64,000 nucleotides of DNA from an uncultured Candidatus Saccharibacteria bacterium (GCA_964386905.1 CAYLUP010000002.1:128522-192521); one strand, 5' to 3'; positions 14,262 through 16,395 are shown, numbered from the stretch's first letter. Program-made: numbers and translations. The notes: a model not told the origin generated them from the sequence alone.

Positions 14262-14282
14262 GCGCTTTTTGTTTTCATAATA

Positions 14283-14310
14283 TTGACAAAATATCAATTT
14301 ATGCTATAAT
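14283..14310 (+). promoter_or_regulatory. Consensus sigma70 promoter TTGACA-N16-TATAAT
   Basis: Seen directly. It is followed by two 5'-UTR hairpins and the RBS AGGAGG at 14393-14398. Confidence 0.5.
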
Positions 14311-14403
14311 ATACATCGTACAGTGCAGGTGCCTGTACGCAGTTCTTTCCTATTTTTTTTCAATCATACTCCGCTCAGCGGAGTTCCGCCCAGGAGGCAA
14401 AAC

Positions 14404-15555
14404 ATGAGCAGTTCCGTCCCGCAAGTCGTCACCCTGTCCCTCGCTTCTTTCAAGTCCACCCCCGTGGTCAAGAAAGAGAAGAAGGCGGTGAAGAAGTACA
14501 TGGCCTACCTCGATCCCGAGGTTTTCAAGAAGAACTGCGAAGTCGCTGATGCGGCCATCCAGGCTGGCAACTTCATCACGGCGTTTGCCGCGATGGAGAA
14601 CAACGGCTTCCGACCGCAGAGCATGGGGGAGCGCGCTGTGAAGCTCGCACTCACCAGCGGTGGTTCCGAGGCCGTCACGAAGTACCTGCAGGATTTCTGT
14701 GAGTACATCGGCATCAGTCTCGATGCTCGTGCCCTCACGGGGCGCGCAAAGCATTTCGTCGAGCTCCTCAATGTGTCGGCCGCTGCCGGCAAAGACGAGT
14801 TCGAAAAGGCCAGGGAGCTTGTGGCCGCGCATGCGATCCGTCTCCAGGTGGATGTTCCCGAGCAGGTGGCGAAGGCCGGAAAGGCCCTCGAGCGCCGCTT
14901 CGTCGAGCCCAAGGCTCTGGCCCAGAAGGATTGGAAGGTGGTTCGTGCCGAGCTCATCCAGAGCGCTGAATCCCTTCTCAACGCAGGTAGCTGTGAGCTC
15001 GCCGCTGACAAGCTGGCACGTGCCGGCTTCGCGCCGCACGTCCTGTGCATGCGCCTCATCACGGAAGACCCCAATCATGGTCAGCCGGATGCGGTCAGCA
15101 GTAAGTTCATGATGAGGTTCGCCGACTACGTCGGAAACGGCCTCACGACCCAGGACATTGCCGACAAGCGTGTCCGTCACTTGAGCTCCTTCTTGGAGCT
15201 CAAGGCGGCCCAGGATCTGGGAGGGTTCTTCCTGGAACTCAAGAAGCTTCAGGACCGGGCTTCGGAGTGCGGCTTCAGCCTGCACACCGATCTCTACCGT
15301 CTGATTTCCAAGGTCGAACGTGTCATGCGTCAGGCCTTCAGGGATCAGAAGATCTGGGAGCAGCTCGGCTTCAGTATCAAGAGCCGCAACGGCCTCGAGT
15401 GCACCATGGTCCACGAGACCACGGCGCACGTCATCGTGGTCACCCTCGATTCCGTCGAGGAGACTATCGTCGAGCCTCCTGCTCCTGCCGCGAAGGCCCA
15501 CAAGCGAGTCCGTGAGCGCAAGTCCAGGGCCGCCGCTGTCGAAGTCGAGGCGTAG
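14404..15555 (+). CDS. Hypothetical protein encoded by a high-GC, GC3-biased gene (foreign codon usage)
   Basis: ATG at 14404 lies 6 nt after AGGAGG. GC is about 60 % against about 45 % in neighbouring genes. No domain was recognised. Confidence 0.6.
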   Translation: MSSSVPQVVTLSLASFKSTPVVKKEKKAVKKYMAYLDPEVFKKNCEVADAAIQAGNFITAFAAMENNGFRPQSMGERAVKLALTSGGSEAVTKYLQDFCEYIGISLDARALTGRAKHFVELLNVSAAAGKDEFEKARELVAAHAIRLQVDVPEQVAKAGKALERRFVEPKALAQKDWKVVRAELIQSAESLLNAGSCELAADKLARAGFAPHVLCMRLITEDPNHGQPDAVSSKFMMRFADYVGNGLTTQDIADKRVRHLSSFLELKAAQDLGGFFLELKKLQDRASECGFSLHTDLYRLISKVERVMRQAFRDQKIWEQLGFSIKSRNGLECTMVHETTAHVIVVTLDSVEETIVEPPAPAAKAHKRVRERKSRAAAVEVEA

Positions 15556-15574: not shown

Positions 15575-15608
15575 GGGAGGACCCACAGGGTCCTCCCGCT
15601 TTTCTTTT
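15575..15608 (+). terminator. Rho-independent terminator (GGGAGGACCC-ACA-GGGTCCTCCC followed by a T-run)
   Basis: A perfect 10-bp stem followed by GCTTTTCTTTT. Confidence 0.65.
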
Positions 15609-15861
15609 ACAAAATGTAAAAGAACAGTATAATCGGTACACAATTTCCGTATTTGAGATTGTAAATATATTGGAGATATCGCATAAGAATGGCCCTGCGG
15701 GCACCAGGCATTCTTGTCGGTTAGGGAACTGCCGCCGCAGTGCATATTTGCATGAAGCAACTGCAAGCATTTGCTTCCCCGAAAGACTCTATGCAACGCG
15801 TGCTTTCGTTTCTTTTGTGTGTTGCTGATGATTGAATGCCCACGTTCGCAAATATTTATTT

Positions 15862-15948
15862 GGAGATGTCGCATAGAGGTCTAGTGCGCCCGCCTGGAAA
15901 GTGGGTATGGTGTCAAAGCCATCGGGAGTTCGAATCTCCCCATCTCCG
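15862..15948 (+). tRNA. tRNA-Ser (anticodon GGA), type II with a long variable arm
   Basis: Manual fold gives acceptor GGAGATG/CATCTCC, a 3-bp D stem, anticodon loop CTGGAAA, a variable stem-loop and the T-loop TTCGAAT. Confidence 0.85.
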
Positions 15949-15950
15949 CA

Positions 15951-16149
15951 ACGAATCACAGAAAAGGATACTTTTCTGTGATTTTTCGTTGCGCGAGACG
16001 CGGAGATTCGAAAGGCGGAGCCGGGCACCCTCACGCATGCGAAGCATCGTGCAGGGTCGGCGAGCCCGGGCAGGAGCCACCCCGTAGATTTCGAGCAAGG
16101 CGAAGAAATATACGGAGGTGAGCTGACGCCGAATCTCCCCATCTCCGCA
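15951..16149 (+). mobile_element. tRNA-3'-end-associated repeat unit S1 (type A core)
   Basis: It contains a terminator hairpin, an inverted T-arm copy (gcggagattcgaa), a conserved core, and a terminal direct repeat of the tRNA-Ser 3' end (16131-16149). Confidence 0.5.
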
Positions 16150-16395
16150 ACGAATCACAGAAAAGGATCCTTTTCTGTGATTTTTCGTTGCGCGAGATGC
16201 GGTAATTCGAACAGGAAAGGGTCAGAAAACTGGAGTTCTTTGGGGATGGGAGCAGCGAGTCTTCGAGCGTTGAGAATGAGCCTGTCCTGAACAATGAGCA
16301 AATTACTATTTGCGACTATGATTCAGGATGTGTCCTCAAGGAGCCACGAGCCTGTTAGGTGCGAGTGGCGACATGAGATTCTCCCCATCTCCGCA
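16150..16395 (+). mobile_element. tRNA-3'-end-associated repeat unit S2 (type B core)
   Basis: Its 5' part matches S1. The core resembles the tRNA-Arg units. It ends with an 18-bp copy of the tRNA-Ser 3' end (16380-16397). Confidence 0.5.

What the first reader, a model, noticed from the sequence alone, without database searches (positions are those of the whole stretch)
16020..16130. Conserved structured core with a compensatory base change shared by the Ser and Gly units
S1 and G units share 'CGAAARGCGGAGCCRGGC', a variable hairpin, then 'CGGCGAGCYCGGGCAGGAGCCACCCCGTA', a long imperfect hairpin, and 'TATACGGAGGTGAGCTGACGCC'. The central stem is GTATATTTG/CAAATATAC in G and GTAGATTTC/GAAATATAC in S1. 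The closing pair changes G-C to C-G, a compensatory change, and the variable hairpin keeps its structure but changes its sequence. This pattern of conservation suggests selection on secondary structure. The structure could be an RNA, or a DNA cruciform or hairpin site such as is used by recombinases or ssDNA transposases, rather than junk.
Basis: partly seen in the sequence, partly recalled or inferred. Interest (0 to 1): 0.7.

Follow-up and report, generated by a model that had tools for sequence, protein, structure and literature searches.

The report
tRNA-framed structured cassette family in Patescibacteria
The flagged sequence is one copy of a large, uncatalogued family of folded non-coding elements that sit just after tRNA genes in ultra-small (CPR) bacteria, each closed by a stem built from a copy and an inverted copy of that tRNA's own 3' end, and the conserved part has evidently moved between different tRNA genes.

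Summary
The Ser unit core (16013-16130) and the two Gly unit cores (56791-56902, 57009-57110) are about 82% identical and occur nowhere else in the window. The G-C to C-G swap is real.

A loosened pattern and then a covariance model recovered 147 homologues, all in Patescibacteria-like contigs and none in about 30 non-CPR control loci. They share a three-way junction. In a MAFFT-only alignment 97.8% of cells pair, against 75% when shuffled and 28-42% when slid. G.U pairs outnumber A.C pairs 98 to 14, so the tRNA-sense strand folds. No Rfam 15 family matches.

The anatomy is constant: tRNA, hairpin P0, reverse complement of tRNA positions about 54-74 (X'), core, direct copy of positions about 56-74 (X).

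Cores that are 90-94% identical sit at different tRNAs, and X' and X match each local tRNA. Similarity begins and ends at the T-loop-derived borders. Units form arrays and their order differs between related contigs. Distribution among CPR relatives is patchy. Two copies bound 1-3 kb inserts.

Best reading (about 0.5): a non-coding, probably RNA-level, mobile cassette that uses tRNA 3' ends as its frame or attachment site, with any helper acting in trans. The mechanism is inferred. The main rival is a host ncRNA processed with the tRNA.

The parts
15862..15948 (+). tRNA-Ser(GGA). Its last ~19 nt (15931-15949, T-loop C56 to position 74) form segment X, which is repeated downstream.
   Evidence: ARAGORN and Rfam; coordinates of X
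15950..15990 (+). P0: terminator-like hairpin (A-run, stem, T-run). It is the centre of an ~83-nt palindrome X-P0-X'.
   Evidence: Palindrome 15929-16011 at 84% complementarity; sequence. The simple terminator scan does not call it because the T-run pairs with the A-run.
15991..16012 (+). X': inverted copy of the tRNA-Ser 3' end, ending in the reverse complement of the T-loop (..GGAGATTCGAA). 16000-16010 is the 5' strand of closing stem P1.
16013..16066 (+). S1 core, P2 arm. It runs GGC/GCC (covarying R-Y pair), a GGA/GA internal loop, GCC/GGC, then the variable hairpin 16023-16058.
16067..16130 (+). S1 core, P3 arm.
   Evidence: (covariance-model hit 15998-16142, 106 bits, E=7e-29)
16131..16149 (+). 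X: first direct copy of the tRNA-Ser 3' end and the 3' strand of P1. It also begins the next unit (S2).
16150..16394 (+). S2 unit. It has a second copy of P0 and X' (95% identical to the first), a different (type B-like) core, and then a third copy of X at 16377-16394 followed by a diverged terminator.
56641..56711 (+). tRNA-Gly(CCC); X = 56694-56712.
56713..56790 (+). Gly unit 1 frame. It comprises P0 hairpin 56713-56740, the outer part of X' 56741-56753 (complement of the acceptor 3' strand), an extra hairpin P1a 56754-56776, and the inner part of X' 56777-56790 (complement of T-stem and T-loop).
56791..56902 (+). Gly unit 1 core (P2 56791-56838, P3 56839-56902). This is type A, homologous to S1.
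   Evidence: (hit 56776-56914, 102 bits)
56902..57110 (+). Gly unit 2, an exact 208-bp tandem copy of unit 1: X 56902-56920, P0, X', P1a and core 56999-57110.
   Evidence: 100% identity; covariance-model hit 56984-57122
57110..57156 (+). Third copy of X plus a third copy of P0. The sequence then diverges into the flank.

Best explanation
The flagged stretch is the conserved core of a ~190-210-bp non-coding cassette from a large family found next to tRNA genes in Patescibacteria (CPR).

Shown. The core (~105-120 nt) folds on the tRNA-sense strand into two arms, P2 and P3, of a three-way junction. The third arm, P1, is made from X', the reverse complement of tRNA positions ~54-74, pairing with X, a direct copy of positions ~56-74 of the same tRNA. 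A hairpin P0 usually separates the tRNA from X'. Cores are exchangeable between these tRNA-specific frames. The borders of the exchanged segment are the T-loop-derived sequences ..AWTCGAA | core | CGAWTC...

Inferred. The cassette is a selfish, non-autonomous mobile element that uses the 3' end of tRNA genes as a safe attachment site. It is transcribed with, or read through from, the tRNA. Its folded RNA, closed by a mini-helix that looks like acceptor plus T stem, is the cis-acting signal for a factor encoded elsewhere. New insertions are made by breakage or template switching at the near-universal, partly palindromic T-loop sequence TTCGAA/TTCGAT. X' would be produced by fold-back copying of the target's own 3' end across the P0 hairpin, which would explain why it always matches the local tRNA and always stops in the T-loop. 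Arrays then grow by repeated insertion and by unequal crossing-over between X copies.
For: Family and structure:
- 102 of 119 pattern hits in metagenomes are full-length members.
- The covariance model gave 147 hits, and none in about 30 non-CPR loci.
- Covariation is strong: 97.8% of cells pair against 74.8% shuffled and 28-42% slid, and 23 of 32 pairs have double changes. In the larger alignment 30 of 32 pairs have them.
- Strand: G.U plus U.G is 98 against A.C plus C.A at 14 in P2 and P3.

Location:
- 71 of 110 hits have a same-strand tRNA no more than 120 nt upstream, covering 29 anticodons.
- X matches the 3' end of an upstream tRNA in 77 of 139 hits.
- X' equals the reverse complement of the 3' strand, not the tRNA 5' strand, in every clear G.U-informative case.

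Mobility:
- The nearest relative of a core sits at a different anticodon in 88 of 98 cases. Examples are 94% identity between Gly(tcc) and His(gtg), and 93% between Trp and Gln.
- Similarity stops exactly at the T-loop-derived borders, while X' and X follow the local tRNA.
- L083 has 94%-identical cores at tRNA-Gly and at the end of a tRNA-Phe-linked insert, with different stems.
- Unit order differs between related contigs L054 and L066.
- The window has an exact tandem duplicate.
- Relatives L004, L006 and L007, with 11 tRNAs, lack the element.
- The window's tRNA-Phe is empty whereas L003's is occupied.
- X'-core-X closes a 3.2-kb insert (L131) and a 1.1-kb insert (L083) that start at a tRNA.

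Co-transcription: some members have no terminator between tRNA and element.
Against: - No recombinase, transposase or reverse transcriptase is linked to the elements. Neighbouring genes are housekeeping genes, cargo proteins are not recurrent, and only one HNH homing endonuclease was seen.
- Co-resident copies are mostly old, at 55-73% identity, so there is no sign of recent bursts.
- tRNA-Gly(CCC) carries a type A core both in the window and in the closest relative L003, with a compensatory C-G to U-A change. This could mean selection in situ for a host function.
- No empty and filled pair of otherwise identical sites was found.
- Nothing shows transcription. P0 looks like a terminator placed in front of most units.
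- The fold-back and template-switch steps are pure inference.
- The seed pattern biases the apparent invariance of CGGAGCC and GGCGAG.
Confidence: 0.5

Rival explanations
1. The element is a host non-coding RNA gene family, not a mobile element. X'-core-X is transcribed with the tRNA. The P1 stem mimics the acceptor/T-stem mini-helix, so RNase P, RNase Z and the CCA-adding enzyme would trim it like a tRNA. The P2/P3 domain would perform a cellular function, such as binding a protein through its tandem G.A motifs. Copies at different tRNAs would exchange cores by gene conversion.
For: - Structure is strictly conserved over deep divergence, with many intact but highly diverged copies in one genome.
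- Orientation is always tRNA-sense, and each unit ends with the tRNA's own 3' end and trailer.
- Some members have no terminator between tRNA and element.
- A core is retained at tRNA-Gly(CCC) in two species, with a compensatory change.
- A bulged A opposite the discriminator region recurs in many members.
- No mobility gene lies nearby.
Against: - The distribution is patchy: related CPR loci with 11 tRNAs have none.
- Copy number and order vary, and exact tandem copies occur.
- A processing handle has no need to equal the local tRNA, yet X' is re-specified at every tRNA while cores stay 90-94% identical.
- P1 is a perfect duplex that erases G.U identity pairs such as G3.U70 of tRNA-Ala.
- X'-core-X also marks the far end of 1-3 kb inserts.
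- Many units lie behind a terminator-like hairpin.
Confidence: 0.27
2. The element is a single-stranded-DNA recombination site. The tRNA-sense DNA strand would fold, as integron attC sites, CTX-phage attP or IS200/IS605 ends do. A recombinase or HUH enzyme encoded elsewhere would exchange cassettes at the T-loop sequence, and the arrays would be cassette arrays anchored at the tRNA.
For: - The fold is strand-specific, with conserved structure and variable sequence.
- Units form arrays of variable order at a fixed anchor.
- The long palindromes X-P0-X' and X'-core-X would give hairpins or cruciforms.
- G.T wobbles and GNA triloops closed by sheared G.A are also stable in DNA (the stability is from my own knowledge).
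- The borders fall at GTTCGA-type sequences, reminiscent of the attC core G|TTRRRY.
Against: - No integron integrase, Xer-type, Y1 or HUH gene is linked.
- The sequences flanking the core are inverted, not direct, so simple site-specific excision of the core is not possible.
- IS200/IS605 elements make no direct repeats, whereas here 19-45-bp repeats flank each unit.
- Primary sequence is strongly conserved in junctions and loops, unlike the variable centre of attC.
- Within 1 kb in L068, orientation follows the tRNA on both strands rather than the replication direction.
Confidence: 0.13
3. The elements are decayed scars (attL/attR remnants) of ordinary integrase-borne islands or prophages that targeted tRNA genes. 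The resemblance between copies would reflect common descent from one phage attP region, with no selected structure.
For: - Direct repeats of the tRNA 3' end starting in the T-loop are the classic signature of integrase-mediated insertion (Williams 2002, from my own knowledge).
- Two copies flank 1-3 kb inserts.
Against: - Compensatory changes occur at 23-30 of 32 pairs, with a 7:1 G.U to A.C bias. Decaying double-stranded att sites would not show this.
- The same core occurs at 29 different anticodons with matched X', whereas integrases are specific to one tRNA sequence.
- No integrase was found in any locus examined.
- There were no hits in 2.9 million viral contigs.
Confidence: 0.05

Closest known systems
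tRNA-gene-targeting integrative elements (genomic islands, prophages and CIME-like non-autonomous elements of tyrosine integrases)
   Same: Insertion is at the 3' part of a tRNA gene and the gene is kept intact. Direct repeats of the tRNA 3' end start in the T-loop. Elements accumulate in tandem, and some copies carry cargo.
   Different: There is no integrase in or near the elements, and most are only ~200 bp. They carry an inverted copy of the target as well. The conserved part is a strand-specific folded structure with covariation. One core family serves at least 29 different tRNAs.
Integron gene cassettes and attC sites
   Same: Cassettes form arrays at one anchor point. The sites are defined by the folded structure of one strand rather than by sequence. 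Cassette order varies, and the borders lie at a short GTT-type sequence.
   Different: No IntI, attI or Pc was seen, and the R''/L''/L'/R' boxes are absent. Junction and loop sequences are highly conserved, and the cassettes hold no ORF. The stem sequence is copied from the neighbouring tRNA.
Guide-RNA-bearing mobile elements (IS200/IS605 omega/reRNA with TnpB or IscB, IS110 bridge RNA, type V-K CAST homing spacers against tRNA genes)
   Same: A conserved structured non-coding scaffold lies next to ~20 nt that match the insertion target. tRNA genes are used as homing sites.
   Different: No TnpA, TnpB, IscB, IS110 recombinase or Cas gene is linked. The target-matching segment is paired with its complement inside the same molecule (P1). 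Direct repeats are present. There is no Rfam hit to HEARO, omega or other known scaffolds.
Small structured bacterial repeats (MITEs, REP/BIME, Correia, ERIC, RUP)
   Same: They are short, non-coding and multi-copy, and they fold into stems through terminal inverted repeats. They can be co-transcribed with neighbouring genes.
   Different: The terminal inverted repeat is not a fixed transposase site but a copy of the adjacent tRNA end. Location is strictly site-specific. The element has a three-way junction with conserved non-helical motifs. Within a genome, copies are few and diverged.
tRNA-like or tRNA-framed RNAs (tmRNA, YrlA, mascRNA, viral TLS)
   Same: The 5' and 3' ends pair into an acceptor-like stem. 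The molecule would probably depend on tRNA-processing enzymes and is linked to tRNA transcription units.
   Different: P1 is a perfect complement of the 3' strand and loses the tRNA's G.U pairs. There is no T arm or elbow. The copies are multi-copy and variable. Neither Rfam nor ARAGORN recognises them.
tRNA-targeting retrotransposons of compact eukaryotic genomes (Ty3, TRE5-A, DGLT-A) and R2/SIDE elements co-transcribed with their target
   Same: tRNA flanks are used as a safe haven in gene-dense genomes. The duplicated target is 19-21 bp long. One end is conserved and structured while the other is variable.
   Different: The hosts are bacteria. No reverse transcriptase is linked. Insertion is inside or at the 3' end of the gene rather than up- or downstream by a Pol III ruler. 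An inverted copy of the target is present.

Membership tests
Any Rfam 15 RNA family | Score at or above the family's gathering threshold | tested here: not met
   Only tRNAs and one rRNA passed in the window and 13 related loci. At E<=10 the core region matched nothing; only the long hairpins hit miRNA-precursor models well below threshold.
Integrase-mediated tRNA-targeting island | Direct repeats of the tRNA 3' segment flanking the element | tested here: met
   The repeats are X copies at 15932-15949, 16131-16148 and 16377-16394, and at 56694-56712, 56902-56920 and 57110-57128. X matched an upstream tRNA in 77 of 139 family members.
Integrase-mediated tRNA-targeting island | Tyrosine or serine recombinase gene within or next to the element | tested here: not met
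   Units of ~200 bp have no ORF. Neighbour clustering shows only housekeeping families. Cargo ORFs of L083 and L131 gave no recombinase in Pfam. Not every neighbouring ORF was scanned.
Integron attC / cassette array | IntI integrase with attI nearby, and attC with R''-L''...L'-R' boxes (RYYYAAC ... GTTRRRY) and extrahelical bases | tested here: not met
   No integrase was found. The borders are ..AWTCGAA(C) and (GTT)CGAWTC, which do not fit RYYYAAC/GTTRRRY. A recurrent bulged A exists, but its role is untested.
IS200/IS605 ends, PATE or omega RNA | Subterminal hairpins at both ends, insertion 3' of a fixed tetra- or pentanucleotide without target duplication, and linked or genomic TnpA/TnpB | tested here: not met
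   Target duplication of 19-45 bp is present. There is no linked tnpA or tnpB and no Rfam omega or HEARO hit. Genome-wide presence of TnpB could not be tested.
MITE | Fixed terminal inverted repeats shared by all copies, short target-site duplication, and many near-identical copies | tested here: not met
   Only the inner ~7-10 bp, derived from the T-loop, are shared. The rest of the inverted repeat changes with the tRNA. Co-resident copies are 55-73% identical.
Hammerhead and other small self-cleaving ribozymes | Conserved catalytic core (for example CUGANGA ... GAAA around a three-way junction) | tested here: not met
   There was no Rfam hit at E<=10. By eye, GAAA follows P1, but no CUGANGA lies between P3 and P1; the window has CUGACGC and the family consensus has CGUGACC.
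tRNA-like RNA (tmRNA, TLS, YrlA) | Acceptor stem plus T arm or elbow recognisable by tRNA or tmRNA models | tested here: not met
   ARAGORN found no tmRNA or extra tRNA. The Rfam permuted-tmRNA model gave E=9.4. The T-loop is replaced by the core, and P1 copies the 3' strand rather than the tRNA 5' strand.
Structured RNA under selection (generic) | Compensatory covariation beyond shuffled and slid controls, and strand asymmetry of G.U pairs | tested here: met
Structured RNA under selection (generic) | Evidence of transcription and defined ends | not testable with these tools
   No expression data are available for this organism or these metagenomes.

The most novel reading that the evidence does not exclude
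The element could be a new kind of protein-gene-free mobile RNA cassette. In this reading a conserved three-way-junction RNA is carried in a programmable stem, and both strands of that stem have the sequence of the target tRNA gene's 3' end. The stem would be rewritten at each move by copying the new target. This could happen through fold-back or reverse-transcriptase template switching at the palindromic T-loop TTCGAA, or through RNA-duplex to DNA-duplex strand swapping by an unknown RNA-guided recombinase. The family could then colonise any tRNA gene without damaging it.
Probability: 0.25. Interest if true: 0.9.

Novelty: new variant of a known kind. Interest (0 to 1): 0.8.

Why it matters
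CPR/Patescibacteria genomes are among the most streamlined known. In this window, however, three of four tRNA genes carry arrays of these ~200-bp units, and a family of more than 140 members with a strongly conserved fold went unrecognised by Rfam and by the literature searches done here.

The architecture is constant scaffold, then a ~20-nt segment complementary to the adjacent tRNA end, then constant scaffold, bounded by copies of that tRNA end. No described bacterial repeat, att site or guide RNA has this arrangement.

If the cassette is mobile, it would be a new way of using tRNA genes as safe havens. It would also give a natural example of a target-matched segment that is re-specified at each site, which makes the mechanism of re-specification directly testable.

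If it is instead a host RNA, it is a new abundant ncRNA class tied to tRNA processing in a poorly understood bacterial radiation. In either case it affects how tRNA loci, terminators and pseudo-tRNA fragments should be annotated in CPR genomes.

Tried and rejected
- The exact two-block core pattern GGAGCCACCCCG..CGGAGGTGAGCTG found nothing in the genome, metagenome or viral collections. The window's sub-lineage is rare and the source genome is not in the collections.
- The loosened pattern found nothing in viral contigs.
- Rfam was tried at gathering and E<=10 thresholds and gave nothing for the cores.
- Hammerhead and group II domain V resemblances were considered by eye. Both were rejected because the covarying R-Y pair supports a different pairing and the catalytic consensus is absent.
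- I tested whether X' is the tRNA's own 5' acceptor/T-stem strand, which would make the element a deleted tRNA copy. G.U-informative tRNAs show it is the complement of the 3' strand.
- I looked for a helper gene in cis. Neighbour ORF clustering gave only housekeeping genes. The cargo ORFs of L083 and L131 gave no Pfam hit or a single HNH homing endonuclease, and none recur.
- The GC-rich 410-aa ORF upstream of tRNA-Ser was considered as a helper. It has no Pfam hit and no homologue.
- Vertical inheritance with the tRNA was tested by nearest-neighbour analysis. Only 10 of 98 nearest relatives share the anticodon.
- Six literature searches, one of which was rejected for term syntax, found no description of such elements.

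Full report
**1. What is in the window**

tRNA-Ser(GGA) lies at 15862-15948 and tRNA-Gly(CCC) at 56641-56711. tRNA-Arg(CCT) at 54845-54916 and tRNA-Phe at 54141-54214 on the minus strand are the only other tRNAs.

BLASTN gives 81.6% identity over 142 nt between 15999-16138 and the two Gly copies. The alignment shows two invariant blocks of 20 and 27 nt separated by hairpins of different sequence.

The cores fold far better than shuffles, with z about -4.7, but they do so on both strands, so energy alone does not give the strand.

**2.

After each of the Ser, Gly and Arg tRNAs the same order of parts recurs:
- P0, a hairpin with an A-run before and a T-run after.
- X', the reverse complement of the tRNA's own 3' end. 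It runs back through the acceptor 3' strand, the T-stem 3' strand and the whole T-loop, and ends ..AWTCGAA.
- A GC-rich core.
- X, a direct copy of the tRNA 3' end from T-loop position ~56 to position 74.

X-P0-X' is therefore a long palindrome; at the Ser locus it is 83 nt at 84% complementarity. X' can also pair with the downstream X to close the core.

At the Gly locus the 208-bp unit is present twice, 100% identical, followed by a third X plus P0. At the Ser locus the type A unit S1 is followed by a unit S2 with the same P0 and X' but a different core. That core is shared with the two units after tRNA-Arg. tRNA-Phe has only a terminator.

**3. Relatives**

- The exact two-block core pattern found nothing in any collection, and the source genome is not on record.
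- Loci fetched through the neighbouring ValRS place the window in Paceibacteria-like CPR bacteria. The closest relative is L003, with 80% ValRS identity.
- L003 has a type A unit at the orthologous tRNA-Gly(CCC). The same architecture with this or other cores occurs at several tRNAs of L003, L044, L010, L017, L040 and L042.
- A loosened pattern, TCGAAARRCGGAGCY-N25-55-GGCGAGYC, gave 119 metagenome stretches.
- A covariance model built from 24 of them plus the window copies confirmed 102 of the 119. The other 17 are chance matches inside GC-rich ORFs.
- The model gave 147 hits in all. These include extra copies in the same contigs and hits in the CPR MAG loci L003, L009, L044 and L049.
- It hit none of the ~30 non-CPR ValRS loci that serve as a negative control.
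- Viral contigs gave nothing. No Rfam 15 family matches. Six literature searches, one of which failed on term syntax, found no description.

**4. Structure**

RNAalifold on a MAFFT alignment predicts a three-way junction.
- P1 is X' pairing with X.
- P2 starts with G-R-C/G-Y-C. Next comes an invariant GGA/GA internal loop that could form tandem G.A pairs, then GCC/GGC and a variable hairpin.
- P3 starts with GGN/NCC. Next come a 3x3 internal loop and a 6-bp helix with a bulged A. In most members a UUAG/UUAG segment follows, flanked by G.U pairs, and then a variable hairpin.

23 of the 32 pairs show double compensatory changes. On that alignment, which was not fitted to any model, 97.8% of cells pair. 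The figure is 74.8% after shuffling (0 of 500 shuffles reach the observed value) and 28-42% when partners are slid by 1-3 columns.

On 100 distinct model-aligned members the figures are 91.5% against 67.9%, with 30 of 32 pairs showing double changes. That alignment is fitted to the model and so leans towards the structure.

In P2 plus P3, G.U and U.G pairs number 98 and A.C and C.A pairs number 14. The tRNA-sense strand is therefore the one under structural selection.

Hairpin tips very often carry CGAG..CGAG around GNA, UCUU or CUUG loops. One caveat applies: the invariance of CGGAGCC and GGCGAG is partly an artefact of the search pattern, although model-only hits keep GAAAGRCGGA.

**5. Link to tRNAs**

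- 71 of 110 hits have a same-strand tRNA at most 120 nt upstream, typically 43-77 nt, and 18 more within 1 kb. 29 anticodon types are represented.
- X matches the 3' end of an upstream same-strand tRNA, with at most 3 mismatches in 18, in 77 of 139 hits.
- Where the tRNA has G.U pairs or mismatches, X' follows the complement of the 3' strand and not the tRNA's 5' strand. Examples are L095, L079, L060, L122, L110 and the window's Arg unit. X' is therefore copied from, or selected to pair with, X.
- The direct repeat ends just after the discriminator plus one C.
- One sub-group, which includes the window's Gly units, has an extra hairpin P1a splitting X'. Several of its members have no terminator between tRNA and element, so those at least must be co-transcribed with the tRNA.
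- In L068, elements lie on both strands within 1 kb, each following its own tRNA.

**6. Evidence that the core moves**

- Co-resident copies at different tRNAs are usually only 55-73% identical, and their closest relatives lie in other contigs.
- For 98 cores with an assigned tRNA, the nearest relative in another contig sits at a different anticodon in 88 cases; random expectation is about 95. Identities reach 94% for Gly(tcc) against His(gtg), 93% for Trp against Gln, 90% for Arg(tct) against Gln(ctg), and 89% for Ala against Gly.
- Pairwise alignments with flanks show that similarity begins at ..WTCGAAAG and ends at ..GACC/CGCC-GAWTC. X' and X differ between partners and each matches its own tRNA. 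The ends of P0 are shared in some pairs and not in others.
- In L083, 94%-identical cores lie at tRNA-Gly(CCC) and at the far end of a 1.1-kb insert that starts at tRNA-Phe, with different stems.
- In L131, X'-core-X closes a 3.2-kb insert that starts at tRNA-Ser(GCT). The insert carries three co-oriented ORFs, one of them an HNH homing endonuclease.
- Related contigs L054 and L066 carry the same two unit types after tRNA-Ser(TGA) in different order and number.
- Related CPR loci L004, L006 and L007, with 11 tRNAs, have none.
- No protein family recurs next to the elements.

**7. Interpretation**

Three things are shown:
- A large, uncurated family with a selected fold on the tRNA-sense strand.
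- A frame built from the local tRNA's 3' end in both orientations.
- Cores that are exchangeable between frames, with borders in T-loop-derived sequence.

I infer, at about 0.5, that the units are non-autonomous mobile cassettes using tRNA 3' ends as attachment sites. On this reading they act most likely as RNA and depend on a factor encoded elsewhere.

A fold-back model would explain three facts at once: why X' always matches the local tRNA, why it includes the complement of the trailer, and why it stops in the T-loop. In this model the target's 3' end, or the terminated pre-tRNA 3' end, folds at P0 and is extended back to the T-loop. Template switching then occurs at the partly palindromic TTCGAA. 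This model is not tested.

The main rival, at about 0.27, is a host ncRNA processed like a tRNA, with gene conversion between copies. It is favoured by the deep divergence of intact copies and by retention at tRNA-Gly(CCC) in two species with a C-G to U-A compensation. It does not explain the patchy distribution, the arrays, the cargo-bearing copies, or the need for a stem identical to the local tRNA.

A folded-ssDNA recombination site of the attC or CTX type cannot be excluded (about 0.13). Plain integrase scars are very unlikely (about 0.05).

**8. Verdict**

It does not fit any known family tested here (see the membership table). It most resembles tRNA-targeting integrative elements combined with a structured, target-matched non-coding scaffold. 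I rate it a new variant of a known kind, with a substantial chance of a new mechanism, and high interest.

Noticed in passing
window 16150-16376, 54918-55075, 55076-55315: A second core family (type B) sits in the same tRNA-3'-end frame after tRNA-Ser and tRNA-Arg. It folds as a four-way junction with three hairpins. Relatives were found only in L003 (tRNA-Phe) and L044 (tRNA-Ile, tRNA-Phe). The type A model hits R1 only weakly (19.8 bits).
   Followed up: partly
window 15606-15861: The first ~17 nt of tRNA-Ser(GGA) and its AT-rich leader are duplicated at 15664-15692. The ~160-nt insert between the copies holds a partial inverted copy of the tRNA 5' end, and a strong promoter-like site lies at 15606-15633. 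This may be a mirror-image arrangement at the 5' side of the gene. BLAST found no relative in the fetched loci.
   Followed up: partly
window 14262-15555: A stretch of 54% GC lies in a 44% GC genome. It has a 410-aa ORF, and an equally long ORF on the opposite strand. It has no Pfam domain and no homologue among 5.8 billion proteins. It is either a foreign orphan gene or non-coding DNA.
   Followed up: partly
window 54918-54947 and 56049-56077: The same 27-29-nt terminator hairpin (caaataaaacaggcRtaYgcctgtttta) follows tRNA-Arg and recurs 1.1 kb downstream in both orientations.
   Followed up: no
L131 1046-4430: A 3.2-kb insert lies between tRNA-Ser(GCT) and an X'-core-X copy. It carries three co-oriented ORFs, including an HNH_repeat+HNH homing endonuclease. 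The cargo proteins do not recur in other loci.
   Followed up: partly
L003 15172-15700: tRNA-Arg(CCT) of the closest relative is followed by a tandem array of ~130-nt repeats with an assembly gap inside, then a second, diverged tRNA-Arg-like copy and another framed unit.
   Followed up: no
family-wide, e.g. L125 4661-4802; window 16090-16105: The tips of the P2 and P3 hairpins usually carry 5'-CGAG...CGAG-3' (tandem sheared G.A) closing GNA, UCUU or CUUG loops. Many members also have a single bulged A between the complements of the discriminator and the acceptor strand (TTTTGT-A-GCGGG). These could be protein-binding or extrahelical recognition features.
   Followed up: no
L003 6289-6340; L017 4850-4907: Some tRNAs carry the palindrome X-P0-X' with no type A core and no recognised right-hand X. 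The inverted copy can therefore exist on its own, or may outlast loss of the core.
   Followed up: no
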